Source: a virus
Lineage: Duplodnaviria > Heunggongvirae > Uroviricota > Caudoviricetes
Direction: 5' to 3' (one strand)
DNA: 4,104 bases
Virus record (IMG/VR): IMGVR_UViG_2778261572_000005
Coordinates: 1 to 4,104 of that record
This document shows positions 1 through 3,350 of the stretch, piece after piece. The first letter of the stretch is position 1. The number at the start of each line of letters is the position of its first letter. The position numbers were made by a program, and so were the translations under genes. The notes beneath the pieces were generated by a model that was not told the DNA's origin, did not search any database, and saw only the letters and a program-made list of their open reading frames with translations.

Positions 1-1
1 G

Positions 2-361
2 CACATCAAACGCGTAGGCCGCAATTTCCGGGCGGCTGTCAGGACCATAAAAACGAACGTAACGTTTGAGTGAACCAGAAGCCCGGTATTCGCCGGATAT
101 GTAACACTCGACACCGAAGGCTTTACAGACCAGGTCACACAGGATGTGCATATAACGCGGCGGTGTACTGGCGTCACTCGGCGCACCCGCGCTGGCAGCT
201 TCCTGAATGTCGAACAATTCAGCGTCGTTTTCGCTGATGCCATGCTGGCGCATATAAGCCTGGGCTTTTGCAATAGCGTTAGCGGCTTCTTCCGGGCTTG
301 ATGTCCCTCTGGCAAGGCGTAACAGTTTTTTGATTTTGGCGATGTATTTATTTTTGCTCAT
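2..361 (-). CDS. Partial CDS (N-terminal 120 codons; 3' end lies beyond window position 1), DUF2786-like protein
   Basis: ATG at 361..359 preceded by SD-like GAGGGAG (minus-strand ...GAGGGAGTAGACA-ATG). Hand translation gives MSKNKYIAKIKKLLRLARGTSSPEEAANAIAKAQAYMRQHGISENDAELFDIQEAASAGAPSDASTPPRYMHILCDLVCKAFGVECYISGEYRASGSLKRYVRFYGPDSRPEIAAYAFDV with no stop to the window edge. Not in the ORF track because it is open-ended. The N-terminal K-I-K-K-L-L-x-L-A pattern followed by EEA/AKAQ resembles DUF2786 proteins as I recall them; assignment from memory, not a search. Confidence 0.6.
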   Translation of the reverse strand, partial: MSKNKYIAKIKKLLRLARGTSSPEEAANAIAKAQAYMRQHGISENDAELFDIQEAASAGAPSDASTPPRYMHILCDLVCKAFGVECYISGEYRASGSLKRYVRFYGPDSRPEIAAYAFDV

Positions 362-713
362 TGTCTACTCCCTCTAACAACGTGGTGATGAAATGTCCAG
401 CCATTACTCCGGCATCACGATAAGCGCATCGTGTTTTGCTTTCTGATTGTTTACGCCGGGGAACGGAATAAGCTGATGCAAACATCTCCGCCCTGAATTG
501 CTGCATTGTCAGGACTTTCAATTGCAGGAGACGCTCTTCATCGCTGCATACTGTGCTCATTAATCCATCAAGGATGACATTAAAAGCCCGGTATACCGGG
601 TCATCTTTTGTTCGTTTTGTCAGGGCCACAGCACTGATTATTGACAATGCGCGCTCAAGCTTTTTCAGCTCTGAATTTGGCCATTCAACAGGTGACCAGA
701 CTTTATCTTTCAT
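348..713 (-). CDS. Hypothetical protein, 121 aa from the ATG (MKDKVWSPVEW...); first 6 codons identical to the upstream neighbour
   Basis: ORF track 348..719; the track start is a TTG, but the ATG at 713..711 has a well-spaced SD (AAGGGG, 8 nt upstream), so I call the start there. Stop overlaps the next gene's start by 14 nt (operon-style packing). No recognisable family. Confidence 0.6.
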   Translation of the reverse strand: MKDKVWSPVEWPNSELKKLERALSIISAVALTKRTKDDPVYRAFNVILDGLMSTVCSDEERLLQLKVLTMQQFRAEMFASAYSVPRRKQSESKTRCAYRDAGVMAGHFITTLLEGVDNEQK

Positions 714-763
714 ATACAAATCCCCTTAATTCAGGCGTAAGCCAGCCCCGGCGGGTTTACGCC
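696..763. repeat. 68-bp perfect direct repeat, copy 1 (partner at 1309..1376)
   Basis: CCAGACTTTATCTTTCATATACAAATCCCCTTAATTCAGGCGTAAGCCAGCCCCGGCGGGTTTACGCC is identical at both sites (offset 613 bp), checked base by base. On the minus strand it contains a GC-rich stem, the SD AAGGGG, the ATG and the codons for MKDKVW. Confidence 0.95.
734..763 (-). promoter_or_regulatory. Predicted RNA stem-loop in the 5' leader of the 121-aa gene (7-bp stem GGCGUAA/UUACGCC, GC-rich 16-nt loop), about 20 nt upstream of the SD
   Basis: Minus-strand transcript: GGCGUAA-ACCCGCCGGGGCUGGC-UUACGCC then UGAAUUAAGGGGAUUUGUAU-AUG. The U-rich tract lies 5' of the stem, not 3', so it is not a canonical intrinsic terminator. 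Function inferred, not demonstrated. Confidence 0.35.
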
Positions 764-792
764 ATATACAAATAAAATTAAAAACAGACTTA

Positions 793-1326
793 TTAACTAC
801 GACGTTTAGCTTTCCGGTAATGACGGTCAACAGACTTAACGAACGCCTTCACATCACGGGCAATCAAATCCAGCGGATAATATTCATCCAGCAGTTCCAT
901 TCCGCTGAATCGAATCTGAAAAAAATCAGGCTTATCTTTATATGACTCCATCAGGCCAATAAACCGCAGCTGACGCGGGAGGGATTCCTGCACACCTGAA
1001 ATAGTGAGCAAATCATCTTCAAGGATGTATCCGAGGTTTTCCATACCCTCGCTACATATTCTTGTCAGCATGTTCCGTGTCGCGAGGTACAGTGCCACCG
1101 TGTCATTCGCCATCATGGCGAACAAATCCCCCTGAATATAAGCCCCCTTACTGGCCACAGCATTTCCGGCAATCTGCGCATCAAGTACCACATGCATAAA
1201 ATCGGCAGGTGCTCCCAGATGGCCCAGCAATGATGACGCCCATAACGTTACATTGGTTAACTTCTCAGATGAACGGGTAGCAAAACCTTCAGGAGTAACA
1301 ATAAAATCCCAGACTTTATCTTTCAT
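793..1326 (-). CDS. Hypothetical protein, 177 aa from the ATG (MKDKVWDFIVTPEGF...)
   Basis: ORF track 793..1332; ATG at 1326..1324 with the same SD and leader as the 348..713 gene because both sit inside the 68-bp repeat. Stop TAA at 795..793. The body is unrelated to the downstream paralogous start. No recognisable family. Confidence 0.6.
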   Translation of the reverse strand: MKDKVWDFIVTPEGFATRSSEKLTNVTLWASSLLGHLGAPADFMHVVLDAQIAGNAVASKGAYIQGDLFAMMANDTVALYLATRNMLTRICSEGMENLGYILEDDLLTISGVQESLPRQLRFIGLMESYKDKPDFFQIRFSGMELLDEYYPLDLIARDVKAFVKSVDRHYRKAKRRS

Positions 1327-1376
1327 ATACAAATCCCCTTAATTCAGGCGTAAGCCAGCCCCGGCGGGTTTACGCC
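1309..1376. repeat. 68-bp perfect direct repeat, copy 2 (partner at 696..763)
   Basis: Identical 68-mer; includes the start region of the 177-aa gene. The AT-rich sequence 5' of each copy (minus strand) is also similar but degenerate (GTTTTTAATT in both). Confidence 0.95.
1347..1376 (-). promoter_or_regulatory. Predicted RNA stem-loop in the 5' leader of the 177-aa gene (same element as 734..763)
   Basis: Same sequence as the 734..763 hairpin; sits between the stop of the 63-aa gene (1408) and the SD/ATG at 1326. Confidence 0.35.
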
Positions 1377-1407
1377 TGTTTTAAATAACAATTAAAAACA
1401 AATTAAA

Positions 1408-1599
1408 TTAATGCGGTGCTTTCAGTGTTTCGACTTTTACGAAATAAGGCTCGACATTAATTTCAACCACACAACCACATTTAAAATCTCTGGCTGGCGC
1501 AACAGTTTTCACCACACGACCACAACCAAACACTGCGCTGTCGGTATGTGTAAAACGAGTCCCCACCGGATATAGCTGATTAAAGTTCTTCGCGTTCAT
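1408..1599 (-). CDS. Hypothetical small protein, 63 aa
   Basis: ATG at 1599..1597 preceded by GGAGG (7-nt spacer); stop TAA at 1410..1408. Overlaps the 3' end of the upstream gene by 20 nt. No recognisable family. Confidence 0.5.
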   Translation of the reverse strand: MNAKNFNQLYPVGTRFTHTDSAVFGCGRVVKTVAPARDFKCGCVVEINVEPYFVKVETLKAPH

Positions 1600-1813
1600 G
1601 AGGCGGCCTCCATCCTTTCAGGTGAGCATTGGCACAGAACTGTGCCCGGTGTTCAGCCCAGATGCGGCGCAGGGTGCTACACGGGCTTTGCGCTGCCTTA
1701 CGCCACAGTTTTTCAGCCTCAGCATAATCGCCGCGTTGTTCTGCTCTGGACGCGCCCAGCGAATACGCCGCGCAACTATTTCCGGCTCTGTACTCTTTGA
1801 TATCCTGATGCAT
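1580..1813 (-). CDS. Hypothetical small protein, 77 aa from the internal ATG (MHQDIKEYRAGNS...); weak resemblance to ANR-type small regulators (tentative)
   Basis: The track ORF (1580..1903) begins inside the upstream gene. The ATG at 1813..1811 lies 1 nt after that gene's TAA (TAA-C-ATG) with a GGGG SD about 7 nt upstream, so I call the start there. The W/R/C-containing helical stretch (EKLWRKAAQ...RRIWAEHRAQFC) recalls ANR-family small proteins; low confidence, from memory. Confidence 0.45.
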   Translation of the reverse strand: MHQDIKEYRAGNSCAAYSLGASRAEQRGDYAEAEKLWRKAAQSPCSTLRRIWAEHRAQFCANAHLKGWRPPHEREEL

Positions 1814-2955: not shown

Positions 2956-2977
2956 TCAGTGAATTAACATTTCTGCG
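2956..2977. repeat. 22-bp perfect direct repeat, copy 1 (partner at 3329..3350); intergenic relic of the B-gene 3' end
   Basis: TCAGTGAATTAACATTTCTGCG at both sites. On the minus strand it reads CGCAGAAATGTTAATTCACTGA, which at 3329..3350 encodes the B C-terminus (A)EMLIH-stop. At 2956..2977 the same frame is closed by a TAA just upstream, so it is non-coding there. Confidence 0.9.
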
Positions 2978-2982
2978 CTGCA

Positions 2983-3315
2983 TTATCTGAGTGCAAACGC
3001 AAGTCGTGGCTGATAACGGGGAAGGCGGGCACACATACGCGCAAGACGATAAGCCCGACGAAATCCCTGTAAATTCTGCTCAAAAGGAATAATCATTAAT
3101 CGCGCACAGCATTCATCAACGTCCCAGTCATCGCTGGTATTTCCGGTTCCATTGATTTCTCTTTCCCGGGAATACAAATCAATGCGCAGTTCACCCGGCA
3201 CGAAGCAATCAACAAACGGAATAATTTCACCAGGGGTCCCATTAGAATAAATACAACCATTACGACTGATATTCCGTAGCGCTTTAATTTCTTTTCTGAC
3301 GACAACCTGTTCCAT
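2983..3315 (-). CDS. Hypothetical protein, 110 aa, immediately downstream of the B-like gene and bracketed by the 22-bp repeats
   Basis: ATG at 3315..3313, 13 nt after the B stop, with AAAGG/AGG upstream. The C-terminal 30 residues are Arg-rich, so the true 3' end is uncertain. A nested 69-aa ORF (3096..3305, TTG start) is an alternative reading. Confidence 0.45.
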   Translation of the reverse strand: MEQVVVRKEIKALRNISRNGCIYSNGTPGEIIPFVDCFVPGELRIDLYSREREINGTGNTSDDWDVDECCARLMIIPFEQNLQGFRRAYRLARMCARLPRYQPRLAFALR

Positions 3316-3328
3316 ACCTGGCCTTTAC

Positions 3329-3350
3329 TCAGTGAATTAACATTTCTGCG
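3329..3350. repeat. 22-bp perfect direct repeat, copy 2 (partner at 2956..2977); overlaps the last 7 codons and stop of the B-like gene
   Basis: Identical 22-mer, offset 373 bp from copy 1. Confidence 0.9.

What the first reader, a model, noticed from the sequence alone, without database searches (positions are those of the whole stretch)
696..1376. 68-bp perfect direct repeat supplies an identical leader, SD and first six codons to two adjacent, otherwise unrelated genes
Copies at 696..763 and 1309..1376 are 100% identical. Each holds a GC-rich hairpin, the SD AAGGGG, the ATG and codons MKDKVW, after which the 121-aa and 177-aa proteins diverge completely. The AT-rich sequence 5' of each copy is similar but degenerate. 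This is the signature of a modular junction: one of the two genes was probably inserted or swapped by recombination at this linker. Perfect identity implies a recent event or ongoing gene conversion. Variable cargo behind a conserved junction in a phage accessory region is where anti-defence, host-takeover or exclusion genes tend to sit.
Basis: seen in the sequence. Interest (0 to 1): 0.7.

Follow-up and report, generated by a model that had tools for sequence, protein, structure and literature searches.

The report
Conserved stem-loop flanks swappable phage genes
The 68-base repeat is real: it joins a 30-base stem-loop, conserved across a whole lineage of Mu-like (BcepMu-type) prophages, to a start region shared by two unrelated orphan genes, and relatives show accessory genes gained and lost exactly at this stem-loop.

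Summary
Window 696-763 and 1309-1376 are 68/68 identical. On the coding (minus) strand each copy holds a 30-nt stem-loop, a 20-nt leader with SD AAGGGG, and ATG plus MKDKVW. The 121-aa and 177-aa proteins are otherwise unrelated.

The window is the early region of a BcepMu-like transposable prophage. The repeat is composite.

(1) The stem-loop GGCGTAAACCCGC..GCTTACGCC is an old, position-fixed element. It lies 22-45 nt after the stop of a 63-aa gene in 121 of 125 loci, from E. coli to Photorhabdus, Yersinia and a Pseudomonas phage. It stays about 89% identical where the flanks are about 60% identical, and its inner stem covaries.

(2) The leader plus six codons is the native 5' end of both orphan families in every relative.

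In the E. coli clade the slot between the 63-aa gene and DUF2786 shows 10 arrangements of five gene families in 39 loci. These include single-gene and empty states, and the indel borders fall inside the stem-loop. This fits unequal homologous recombination at a functional intercistronic hairpin, much like T4 PeSL cassettes.

What the hairpin does (RNA stability, processing or an operator) is inferred. The cargo functions remain unknown: no family hits, and the structure models have low confidence.

The parts
1347..1376 (-). Stem-loop HP1, copy 2: GGCGTAAACCCGCCGGGGCTGGCTTACGCC on the minus strand. It lies 31 nt after the stop of the 63-aa gene. This is the ancestral, lineage-wide copy.
   Evidence: Covariance model R1 scores it 68.6 bits. 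The same element follows the 63-aa gene in 121 of 125 loci.
734..763 (-). Stem-loop HP1, copy 1. It is identical in sequence to copy 2 and lies 29 nt after the stop of the 177-aa gene. It belongs to the 3' end of the p177 cassette.
   Evidence: R1 scores it 66.9 bits. HP1 follows p177/p181 in every locus that has that gene.
1309..1346 (-). Shared translation-initiation module of p177: a 20-nt leader TGAATTAAGGGGATTTGTAT followed by ATG and codons 2-6 (MKDKVW).
696..733 (-). The same translation-initiation module in front of p121. It is native to the p121/p131 family in all relatives.
1377..1407 (-). AT-rich tail (10% GC) between the stop of the 63-aa gene and HP1.
   Evidence: The TTTAAA(N)AT motif 5' of the hairpin is conserved in alignment A2.
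764..792 (-). AT-rich tail (14% GC) between the p177 stop and HP1. It is a diverged copy of the tail above and shares TGTTTTTAATT(G)TTATTT with it.
   Evidence: (D1 and D3).
793..1326 (-). p177, cargo gene 1. It is an orphan family (phrog_7741, 177-181 aa) found only in this E. coli prophage group.
348..713 (-). p121, cargo gene 2. It is an orphan family that is normally 131 aa; this copy has a 10-aa in-frame deletion. Its 3' end overlaps the DUF2786 start by 14 nt.
1408..1599 (-). 63-aa gene (phrog_5591), the conserved upstream partner of HP1.
1..361 (-). 5' part of the DUF2786 gene, which is the fixed downstream border of the variable slot.
2956..3350 (-). A second cassette of the same logic. 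The 110-aa orphan gene (2983..3315) is bracketed by a perfect 22-nt direct repeat (2956-2977 and 3329-3350). The repeat is the last 22 nt of the B-like ATPase gene.
   Evidence: (D4), which shows filled and empty sites in relatives.

Best explanation
The window is the early operon of a BcepMu-like transposable prophage, with all genes on the minus strand.

A 30-nt GC-rich stem-loop (HP1) sits in the long intercistronic gap after a conserved 63-aa gene. The next gene's ATG lies 19-21 nt after the hairpin in the E. coli clade and about 15-25 nt after it in more distant relatives. HP1 is an old, selected cis element of this phage lineage. Most likely it acts on the sense early mRNA as a structural punctuation mark: a barrier to decay or processing at the border between the core early genes and the accessory genes, or an operator for a specific binding partner. 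That role is inferred.

HP1 is kept nearly invariant, and in the E. coli clade the p177 cassette carries a second copy at its 3' end. It therefore provides 30-35 nt of perfect homology between non-allelic positions. Where the shared p177/p121 start module is added, the homology reaches 68 nt. Unequal homologous recombination, or Campbell-type insertion of an excised circle, at these copies adds, removes and re-pairs promoter-less accessory genes between the 63-aa gene and DUF2786. This is shown by comparative data; the enzymology is inferred.

The 68-nt perfect repeat in the window is the product of such an event. It joined p177 (with its tail and HP1) to p121 (with its own HP1 and start module). 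The two orphan families share that start module, 20 nt of leader plus six codons (roughly a ribosome footprint), because an older exchange replaced the gene body behind an intact translation-initiation region.
For: SHOWN
- The repeat and its anatomy.
- Prophage context (Mu-type transposase, B-like ATPase, DUF3164, GemA, Mor). The nearest isolated phages by DUF3164 are BcepMu and phiE255.
- The junction has three parts. The tail goes with the upstream gene, the hairpin is shared, and the leader goes with the downstream gene.
- There are 10 arrangements in 39 complete E. coli-clade loci. HP1 always follows p63 and p177. A different hairpin, HP2, follows DUF7448.
- Filled and empty pairs differ by exactly one cassette plus one hairpin: L011 vs L002, L003 vs L001, L019 vs L018.
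- The same leader alleles (tgaattaagggg, tgaatcaagagg) occur in front of both p177 and p131.
- HP1 conservation: 121 of 125 loci that carry p63 have it 22-45 nt (mode 31) after the stop.
- 55 of 58 distant IMG/VR loci have exactly one sense-strand hit. The three without a hit are L071, where the contig ends inside the 63-aa gene; L079, which has a different hairpin at this place; and L094, which has no 63-aa gene homologue.
- An exact-pattern scan of GTDB species representatives gave 26 stretches. 24 are from Enterobacterales. 22 of these show the flanking 63-aa gene and/or DUF3164; in the other two the hairpin lies at the very start of the fetched stretch, so the upstream genes are not in it. 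The remaining two matches look like chance.
- HP1 is also present in Pseudomonas phage VW-6B and in two Klebsiella phages.
- Where p63 genes are 61% identical in nucleotides, the hairpin is 89% identical, and the flanks are 62% and 58%.
- Structure: 85% of cells are paired, 3 pairs show double-sided changes, and 0 of 500 shuffles reach the observed covariation score. Slid controls give 16-44% paired.
- Where HP1 is missing, a different stable hairpin sits at the same place (L079; HP2).
- HP1 occurs nowhere else in the 43-kb TUM1881 prophage region. It is found only in E. coli genomes that carry this prophage.

INFERRED
- The RNA-level role.
- The recombination pathway.
Against: - No transcript data exist. 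The strand on which the hairpin acts is not settled. For most variants, including the window copies, the antisense strand folds better (z = -5.1 and -2.2, against -0.7 and 0.0 for the sense strand). G.U versus A.C asymmetry points both ways.
- The strong conservation of primary sequence (outer stem invariant, a GGG-containing loop in all variants) exceeds what a simple decay barrier needs. It hints at a specific partner that has not been identified.
- Gene order in the slot is always DUF7448 > p177 > (p131 or p60) > DUF2786. Much of the diversity could therefore come from deletions out of one ancestral array and not from repeated gains.
- A second cassette in the window (the 110-aa gene) is bracketed by a 22-nt repeat with no hairpin. 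The hairpin is therefore not required for this kind of exchange.
Confidence: 0.6

Rival explanations
1. Ordinary tandem gene duplication. On this reading p121 and p177 are paralogues whose bodies have diverged beyond recognition, while the 5' end was kept.
For: The two genes are adjacent and in the same orientation. They share 68 nt, including six codons.
Against: - BLASTP finds nothing beyond the first residues, and the lengths and predicted helix patterns differ.
- Each gene occurs alone in the same slot in relatives, and each can follow a different upstream gene.
- A perfect 68-nt block next to completely unrelated sequence does not fit gradual divergence.
Confidence: 0.03
2. HP1 is an intrinsic terminator for transcription running against the early genes, that is, on the window + strand. 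On this reading it protects the transposition genes from antisense or read-in transcription.
For: - The + strand folds better (-18.2 vs -13.9 kcal/mol; z = -5.1 for copy 2).
- Copy 2 on the + strand extends to CAGGCG..CGCCTG and is followed by TTTTAAAT.
- In L010 an opposite-strand 86-aa ORF ends 43 nt before the hairpin.
Against: - The consensus terminator scan does not call it on either strand.
- On the + strand copy 1 is followed by ATATACAAAT.
- The Pseudomonas and Klebsiella variants are followed by ATAATTAAAT and ATTTAAAAAG.
- The replacement hairpins HP2 and the one in L079 have no T-run on that strand.
- No conserved antisense promoter or gene exists downstream.
Confidence: 0.1
3. HP1 is the operator of a specific RNA-binding protein that controls translation or stability of whatever gene is plugged in behind it. 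The candidate is the co-conserved 63-aa protein encoded just upstream, or a host factor.
For: - The outer stem is invariant, there is a constant A.C mismatch, and all variants have a GGG-containing loop, while the inner stem covaries.
- The distance to the next ATG is fixed at 19-21 nt in the E. coli clade and about 15-25 nt elsewhere.
- HP1 strictly co-occurs with the 63-aa gene: all three phages in the phage collection that have the gene also have HP1. BcepMu has neither.
Against: - The co-occurrence is between physically adjacent features, so it is weak evidence.
- The 63-aa protein has no known RNA-binding family or solved relative.
- L079 keeps the protein but has an unrelated hairpin.
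Confidence: 0.15
4. HP1 is a site for a dedicated site-specific recombinase (like an integron attC) or a small mobile repeat (REP- or MITE-like).
For: It is an imperfect palindrome with constant mismatches, repeated between promoter-less cassettes that all face the same way.
Against: - No tyrosine or serine recombinase and no RAYT is annotated in the whole prophage.
- HP1 is absent from the rest of the prophage and from E. coli genomes that lack the prophage.
- Outside the E. coli clade there is exactly one copy, always in the same syntenic place.
- The cassette order is fixed.
Confidence: 0.04
5. The perfect identity is only a sequencing or assembly collapse, or a chance similarity.
For: None beyond the general risk that repeats carry.
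Against: The same arrangement is found in two complete genomes and, with a 1-nt difference, in two further assemblies.
Confidence: 0.01

Closest known systems
PeSL (promoter-early stem-loop) cassettes of T4-type phages (Arbiol et al. 2010, PMC2839356; Comeau et al. 2014, PMC4122927)
   Same: Both are short conserved regulatory motifs containing a stem-loop that flank orphan genes in hyperplastic regions. Insertions, deletions and replacements between close relatives have their borders in the motif. Direct repeats around a cassette fit excision and insertion of small circles.
   Different: HP1 has no sigma-70 promoter next to it and no U-tract on the sense strand, so it is neither a promoter nor an evident terminator. 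Ancestrally it is a single copy at one fixed position in a polycistronic operon, not dozens of copies. The host is a transposable (BcepMu/Mu-like) temperate phage.
Linker or boundary sequences at mosaic joints of lambdoid phages (modular theory of Susskind and Botstein; HK97/HK022/HK620 comparisons; from my own knowledge, not re-read here)
   Same: These are short conserved sequences at gene borders where mosaic joints fall. Alternative, unrelated genes occupy the same slot.
   Different: HP1 is a structured element with covariation. It is conserved far beyond the group of phages that exchange the cassettes.
Morons (from my own knowledge; summarised in PMC4378225)
   Same: A moron is a single extra gene inserted between two genes that are adjacent in relatives, often an orphan and often with lower GC content. 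Here the cargo has 45-46% GC against 50% for the whole window.
   Different: Morons carry their own promoter and terminator. These cassettes have neither, and depend on the early operon and a shared ribosome-binding module.
Intercistronic stabiliser or processing hairpins, such as REP in malE-malF and the RNase III sites between T7 early genes (from my own knowledge)
   Same: A stable stem-loop in a long intercistronic gap of a polycistronic mRNA, close to the next ribosome-binding site.
   Different: No cleavage or stability data exist for HP1. It is too short for a canonical RNase III substrate, and its sequence is unrelated to REP.
Integron attC sites
   Same: An imperfect palindrome lies between promoter-less cassettes in the same orientation.
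   Different: There is no integrase and no attC core motifs. The cassette order is fixed, and most phages carry a single copy.

Membership tests
PeSL regulatory cassettes (T4-type phages) | A strong sigma-70-like early promoter within the motif. | tested here: not met
   The consensus scan finds no promoter-like site near 714-800 or 1327-1410 on either strand.
PeSL regulatory cassettes (T4-type phages) | A stem-loop that works as a transcription terminator. | tested here: inconclusive
   A stable stem-loop is present. There is no U-tract on the sense strand. On the antisense strand only copy 2 has one.
PeSL regulatory cassettes (T4-type phages) | The motifs flank non-essential orphan genes in variable regions, and indel borders between relatives fall in the motif. 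| tested here: met
Integron attC / gene cassette array | An adjacent integron integrase (tyrosine recombinase). | tested here: not met
   No recombinase other than the Mu-type transposase is annotated in the whole TUM1881 prophage.
Integron attC / gene cassette array | Many cassettes in variable order, each ending in its own attC of variable sequence. | tested here: not met
   There are at most three cassettes, the order is fixed, and p60 and p121 have no hairpin after them.
REP/BIME or MITE-like dispersed repeats | Many copies dispersed in intergenic regions of the host chromosome. | tested here: not met
   Matches occur only in the 59 of 5426 E. coli genomes that carry the prophage, with 1-4 places each. 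No further copy is found in 43 kb around the prophage.
Moron | Own promoter and terminator flanking a single inserted gene. | tested here: not met
   No promoter-like or terminator-like sites are found at the cassette borders.
Any Rfam family | A score at or above the family's gathering threshold. | tested here: not met
   The best overlapping match is Lnt RNA at 26 bits against a gathering score of 55, E = 0.98.
BcepMu-like transposable prophage (genomic context) | A Mu-type DDE transposase, a B-like AAA ATPase, DUF3164, GemA and Mor in one early operon next to Mu-like head and tail genes. | tested here: met
   Annotations. DUF3164 Pfam hit at 2.9e-81. The nearest phages by DUF3164 are BcepMu and phiE255 at 67-69% aa identity.

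The most novel reading that the evidence does not exclude
HP1 is a portable regulatory socket: a sequence-specific RNA operator recognised by the co-conserved 63-aa protein encoded just upstream, or by a conserved host factor. The operator sets the stability or translation of whatever accessory gene lies behind it. Cassettes that carry a copy, together with a shared ribosome-binding module, are therefore wired into early-operon control the moment they recombine in. This would be a previously undescribed cis/trans pair shared by BcepMu-like phages of Enterobacterales and Pseudomonas.
Probability: 0.15. Interest if true: 0.7.

Novelty: new variant of a known kind. Interest (0 to 1): 0.5.

Why it matters
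How Mu-like transposable phages gain and lose accessory genes is an open point. A comparison of Pseudomonas Mu-like phages found no common sequence flanking the variable regions and called for a detailed analysis of those flanks (PMC4378225).

Here the flanks are visible. A conserved stem-loop, and in a second case a 22-nt gene end, bracket orphan cassettes, and relatives preserve both filled and empty sites. This gives a concrete, testable route for gene flux in the early accessory region of this lineage.

The work also defines a new cis element. It is a 30-nt stem-loop that is far better conserved than the proteins around it, from E. coli prophages to a Pseudomonas phage, and its function is unknown.

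Practically, the slot is a precise place to look for host-takeover or anti-defence genes. The hairpin is also a handy marker for finding that slot in new genomes.

Tried and rejected
- Megablast of the whole window against the phage collection found nothing. Relatives had to be reached through E. coli genomes and through proteins.
- Rfam gave no credible family.
- Pfam, PHROGs, PADLOC and NCBIfam gave no functional hit for p121, p177, p60, p63 or p110. The only result was unnamed PHROG families.
- The PDB sequence search found nothing significant.
- AlphaFold2 on the available shallow alignments gave mean pLDDT 50.3 for p121 and 39.8 for p177. Fold searches were therefore not run, because the matches would have been meaningless.
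- The exhaustive HMMER search with p177 found one full-length family cluster, one 74-aa N-terminal fragment and two weak hits (E = 1.7e-6 and 5.7e-5) that were not followed up.
- I tried to decide the functional strand from G.U versus A.C asymmetry. There were 12 sense-only wobble cells in 5 columns and 30 antisense-only cells in 4 columns, 24 of them in a single column, so the result is inconclusive.
- A frameshift signal (TTTAAAN followed by a hairpin) was considered and rejected. The motif lies after the stop codon of the 63-aa gene, and the spacer is only 2 nt.
- tRNA-like (RNase P substrate), Chi site, Mu strong gyrase site, IHF site and CsrA site were considered from memory. Nothing in the sequence supported any of them.
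- A first fixed-length, substitutions-only search for the 68-mer missed most copies because of a 1-nt indel in the loop. It was replaced by pattern and covariance-model searches.
Full report
OBSERVATION. Window 696-763 and 1309-1376 are identical over all 68 nt. Similarity continues at 91% to 89 nt (D1; re-checked). All genes in the window lie on the minus strand. In that sense each copy reads as follows:
- hairpin GGCGTAAACCCGCCGGGGCTGGCTTACGCC (734-763 and 1347-1376);
- leader TGAATTAAGGGGATTTGTAT (714-733 and 1327-1346);
- ATGAAAGATAAAGTCTGG, encoding MKDKVW (696-713 and 1309-1326).
After that point the 121-aa ORF (348..713) and the 177-aa ORF (793..1326) share nothing (BLASTP). The same arrangement is 100% identical over window 680-800 in two complete E. 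coli genomes, where PGAP calls the same starts.

CONTEXT. The window has no megablast match among deposited phages. It matches a prophage in 58 of 5426 complete E. coli genomes at 92-95% identity. The annotations show a transposable prophage. In order it has a repressor, a ner-like HTH gene, a Mu-type transposase, a B-like AAA ATPase, small ORFs, DUF3164, an ANR regulator, a 63-aa gene, a variable slot, DUF2786, more small ORFs, GemA, Mor, lysis genes and Mu-like head and tail genes. By DUF3164 the nearest isolated phages are Burkholderia BcepMu and phiE255 at 67-69% aa identity.

ANATOMY OF THE JUNCTION. I printed every intergenic junction of the slot in 24 loci. There are three parts.
- An AT-rich tail that goes with the upstream gene. 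One version follows the 63-aa gene, a diverged copy of it follows p177, and a third follows DUF7448.
- A hairpin. HP1 follows the 63-aa gene and p177. A different hairpin, HP2 (GGCGCAGGTAAACAGGTCTGCGCC), follows DUF7448.
- TGAAT plus SD plus start, which goes with the downstream gene.
The hairpin ends 19-21 nt before the ATG of five different downstream families: p177/181, p121/131, a 60-aa gene, DUF7448 and DUF2786.

THE SLOT IS POLYMORPHIC, WITH BORDERS IN THE HAIRPIN. The 39 complete E. coli-clade loci show 10 arrangements:

| Loci | Arrangement |
|---|---|
| 4 | 63 \| HP1 \| DUF2786 |
| 9 | 63 \| HP1 \| p60 \| DUF2786 |
| 4 | 63 \| HP1 \| p131 \| DUF2786 |
| 1 | 63 \| HP1 \| p181 \| HP1 \| DUF2786 |
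| 6 | 63 \| HP1 \| p181 \| HP1 \| p60 \| DUF2786 |
| 4 (including the window) | 63 \| HP1 \| p177/181 \| HP1 \| p121/131 \| DUF2786 |
| 5 | 63 \| HP1 \| DUF7448 \| HP2 \| p131 \| DUF2786 |
| 4 | 63 \| HP1 \| DUF7448 \| HP2 \| p181 \| HP1 \| p60 \| DUF2786 |
| 1 each | two further arrangements |

Pairs such as L011/L002, L003/L001 and L019/L018 differ by exactly one cassette plus one hairpin. The border cannot be placed more precisely than somewhere within the 30-35 nt (or 67-68 nt) of identity. That is the footprint of recombination between repeats, or of Campbell-type insertion of a circle. The gene order is always the same, so deletions from a fuller array may account for much of the variety.

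THE HAIRPIN IS OLD AND SELECTED. I collected 80 IMG/VR loci by DUF3164 similarity alone (64-100% aa identity). Nearly all carry HP1 on the gene-sense strand just after the 63-aa gene.
- Covariance model R1 finds exactly one sense-strand copy in 55 of 58 distant loci. The three without a hit are L071, where the contig ends inside the 63-aa gene; L079, which has a different hairpin at this place; and L094, which has no 63-aa gene homologue.
- R1 finds only the two junction copies in 43 kb around the TUM1881 prophage.
- An exact-pattern scan of one genome per GTDB species gave 26 hits. 24 are from Enterobacterales, including Photorhabdus, Xenorhabdus, Yersinia, Pectobacterium, Pantoea, Edwardsiella, Citrobacter, Kluyvera, Kosakonia and Trabulsiella. 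22 of these show the flanking 63-aa gene and/or DUF3164. In the other two the hairpin lies at the very start of the fetched stretch, so the upstream genes are not in it. The remaining two matches have non-complementary interiors and look like chance.
- Klebsiella phages Kp4852-3 and ST405-OXA48phi1.1 and Pseudomonas phage VW-6B also have HP1 after their 63-aa homologues. BcepMu has neither the gene nor the hairpin.
- Of 125 loci with the 63-aa gene, 121 have HP1 22-45 nt (mode 31) after the stop. Two of the exceptions are cut by the contig end inside the hairpin. One is found by the model but not by my regular expression. The last, L079, has a different GC-rich hairpin at the same spot.
- In pairs where the 63-aa genes are 61% identical in nucleotides, the hairpin is 89% identical. 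The tail is 62% identical and the next 30 nt are 58% identical.
- In a 30-variant alignment the outer stem GGCGTAA/TTACGCC is almost invariant, and the inner stem varies with compensation. 85% of cells are paired, 3 pairs have double-sided changes, and 0 of 500 shuffles reach the covariation score. Slid controls give 16-44% paired.
- The loop always contains GG(G) on the sense strand.
Identity of the 30 hairpin bases between the two window copies is therefore expected and carries no information about age.

WHICH STRAND, AND WHAT FUNCTION. For the window copies and most variants the antisense (+) strand folds better, because A.C on the sense strand becomes G.U on the antisense strand. Other variants show the reverse, and the wobble asymmetry is not decisive.

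As a terminator HP1 is unconvincing:
- there is no U-tract on the sense strand;
- there is a usable U-tract on the antisense strand only for copy 2;
- there is none in the Pseudomonas or Klebsiella variants, nor after the replacement hairpins.

Different hairpins (HP2 and the one in L079) occupy the same place. This argues that a stem-loop as such is needed between the stop codon and the next ribosome-binding site. The invariant outer stem, the constant mismatch and the G-rich loop suggest an additional sequence-specific partner. I therefore favour a sense-strand RNA role: a decay or processing barrier at the border between core and accessory early genes, or an operator. This step is inference.

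THE SHARED START MODULE. The p121 family has only four 90%-identity clusters, all 131 aa long. The window copy carries a 10-aa in-frame deletion. All members start MKDK(V/F/D)(W/R)S and all carry the same leader. This holds where p131 is the only gene in the slot and where it follows HP2. The same leader alleles occur in front of p177 and p131.

The 38 nt after the hairpin are thus the native 5' end of both families. The stretch runs from -20 to +18, roughly a ribosome footprint. I read this as an older body swap behind an intact initiation region. In the four genomes with both genes the two junction copies differ by 0-1 nt and share the same hairpin length variant. In p181+p60 genomes the hairpin copies often differ. 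This is consistent with recent formation or with conversion over the longer homology.

CARGO. p177 (phrog_7741) and p121 are orphan families confined to this E. coli prophage group. Both are predicted to be all-helical, but the models have low confidence. There are no family, defence-system or PDB matches. Their GC content is 45-46%, against 50% for the window. Their function remains unknown.

A SECOND CASSETTE IN THE SAME WINDOW. The 110-aa orphan gene (2983..3315) is bracketed by a perfect 22-nt repeat (2956-2977 and 3329-3350), which is the end of the B-like ATPase gene. Relatives without the gene have one copy of this sequence and go straight on to the next gene. Exchange at short direct repeats is therefore a general feature of this region, and it does not depend on the hairpin.

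COMPARISON AND VERDICT. The closest described system is the PeSL cassette of T4-type phages, where promoter plus stem-loop motifs flank orphan genes and mediate modular shuffling (PMC2839356; PMC4122927). HP1 shares the position and the shuffling footprint. It fails the promoter criterion and is not an evident terminator. It also resembles lambdoid boundary sequences. It fails the defining tests for morons, integron attC sites, REP elements and every Rfam family (see the membership table). For Mu-like phages, a published comparison found no common flanking sequence around the variable regions (PMC4378225).

I rate this a new variant of a known kind. The hairpin itself, conserved from E. coli prophages to a Pseudomonas phage and of unknown function, is the most interesting residue.

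Noticed in passing
window 2956-2977 and 3329-3350 (bracketing 2983..3315): A perfect 22-nt direct repeat, equal to the last 22 nt of the B-like ATPase gene including its stop, brackets a 110-aa orphan gene. Relatives without the gene have a single copy. This is a filled/empty site like the 68-mer case, but without a hairpin.
   Followed up: yes
L005:5019-5082, L012:4937-5000 and equivalent positions (after DUF7448): The DUF7448 cassette ends in its own hairpin, GGCGCAGGTAAACAGGTCTGCGCC. It is unrelated to HP1 in its interior but has the same GGCG..CGCC ends and the same TGAAT after it.
   Followed up: partly
L079, about 4840-4870: This is the one locus in which the 63-aa gene is followed by an unrelated GC-rich hairpin (CAGCGCAGGACTGCCTGCGCTG) and not by HP1. 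The hairpin lies 15 nt before the next ATG.
   Followed up: partly
alignment A2, columns 7-15 (for example L133:2718-2726): In most variants outside the E. coli clade the bases before the hairpin make ATG or TTG, followed by GCG and TAA. This is a two-codon mini-ORF overlapping the 5' arm of the stem. The E. coli copy after the 63-aa gene has CAG at that position and so lacks it. It could be coincidence in AT-rich sequence.
   Followed up: no
window 348-713: The window's p121 lacks 10 residues (KNAEIKNDNL in the closest relative, P0001) that are present in all four other clusters of the family. This is an in-frame deletion.
   Followed up: partly
L010:4736-5068: In E. coli AVS0151 the slot holds a degenerate 55-aa remnant of p177 plus an 86-aa ORF on the opposite strand. 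That ORF ends 43 nt before HP1, which on that strand is followed by TGTTTTAAAT.
   Followed up: partly
L045, L124 and L129 (gene after HP1): In some Photorhabdus-type loci HP1 is followed by a 124-aa gene. After a short N-terminal extension (from about residue 8) its sequence resembles the start of the 63-aa protein (MTVKEFNKKYPIGS), which suggests a second paralogue.
   Followed up: no
L007:7400-8097: An IS1A element is inserted in the early region of the RM9088 prophage, between DUF3164 and the small ORFs that follow the ATPase gene.
   Followed up: no
window 1580-1813: The 77-aa gene overlapping the start of the 63-aa gene matches the ANR family of negative regulators (NF033650, 8.4e-16). 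That is an unusual regulator to find inside a transposable-phage early operon.
   Followed up: no
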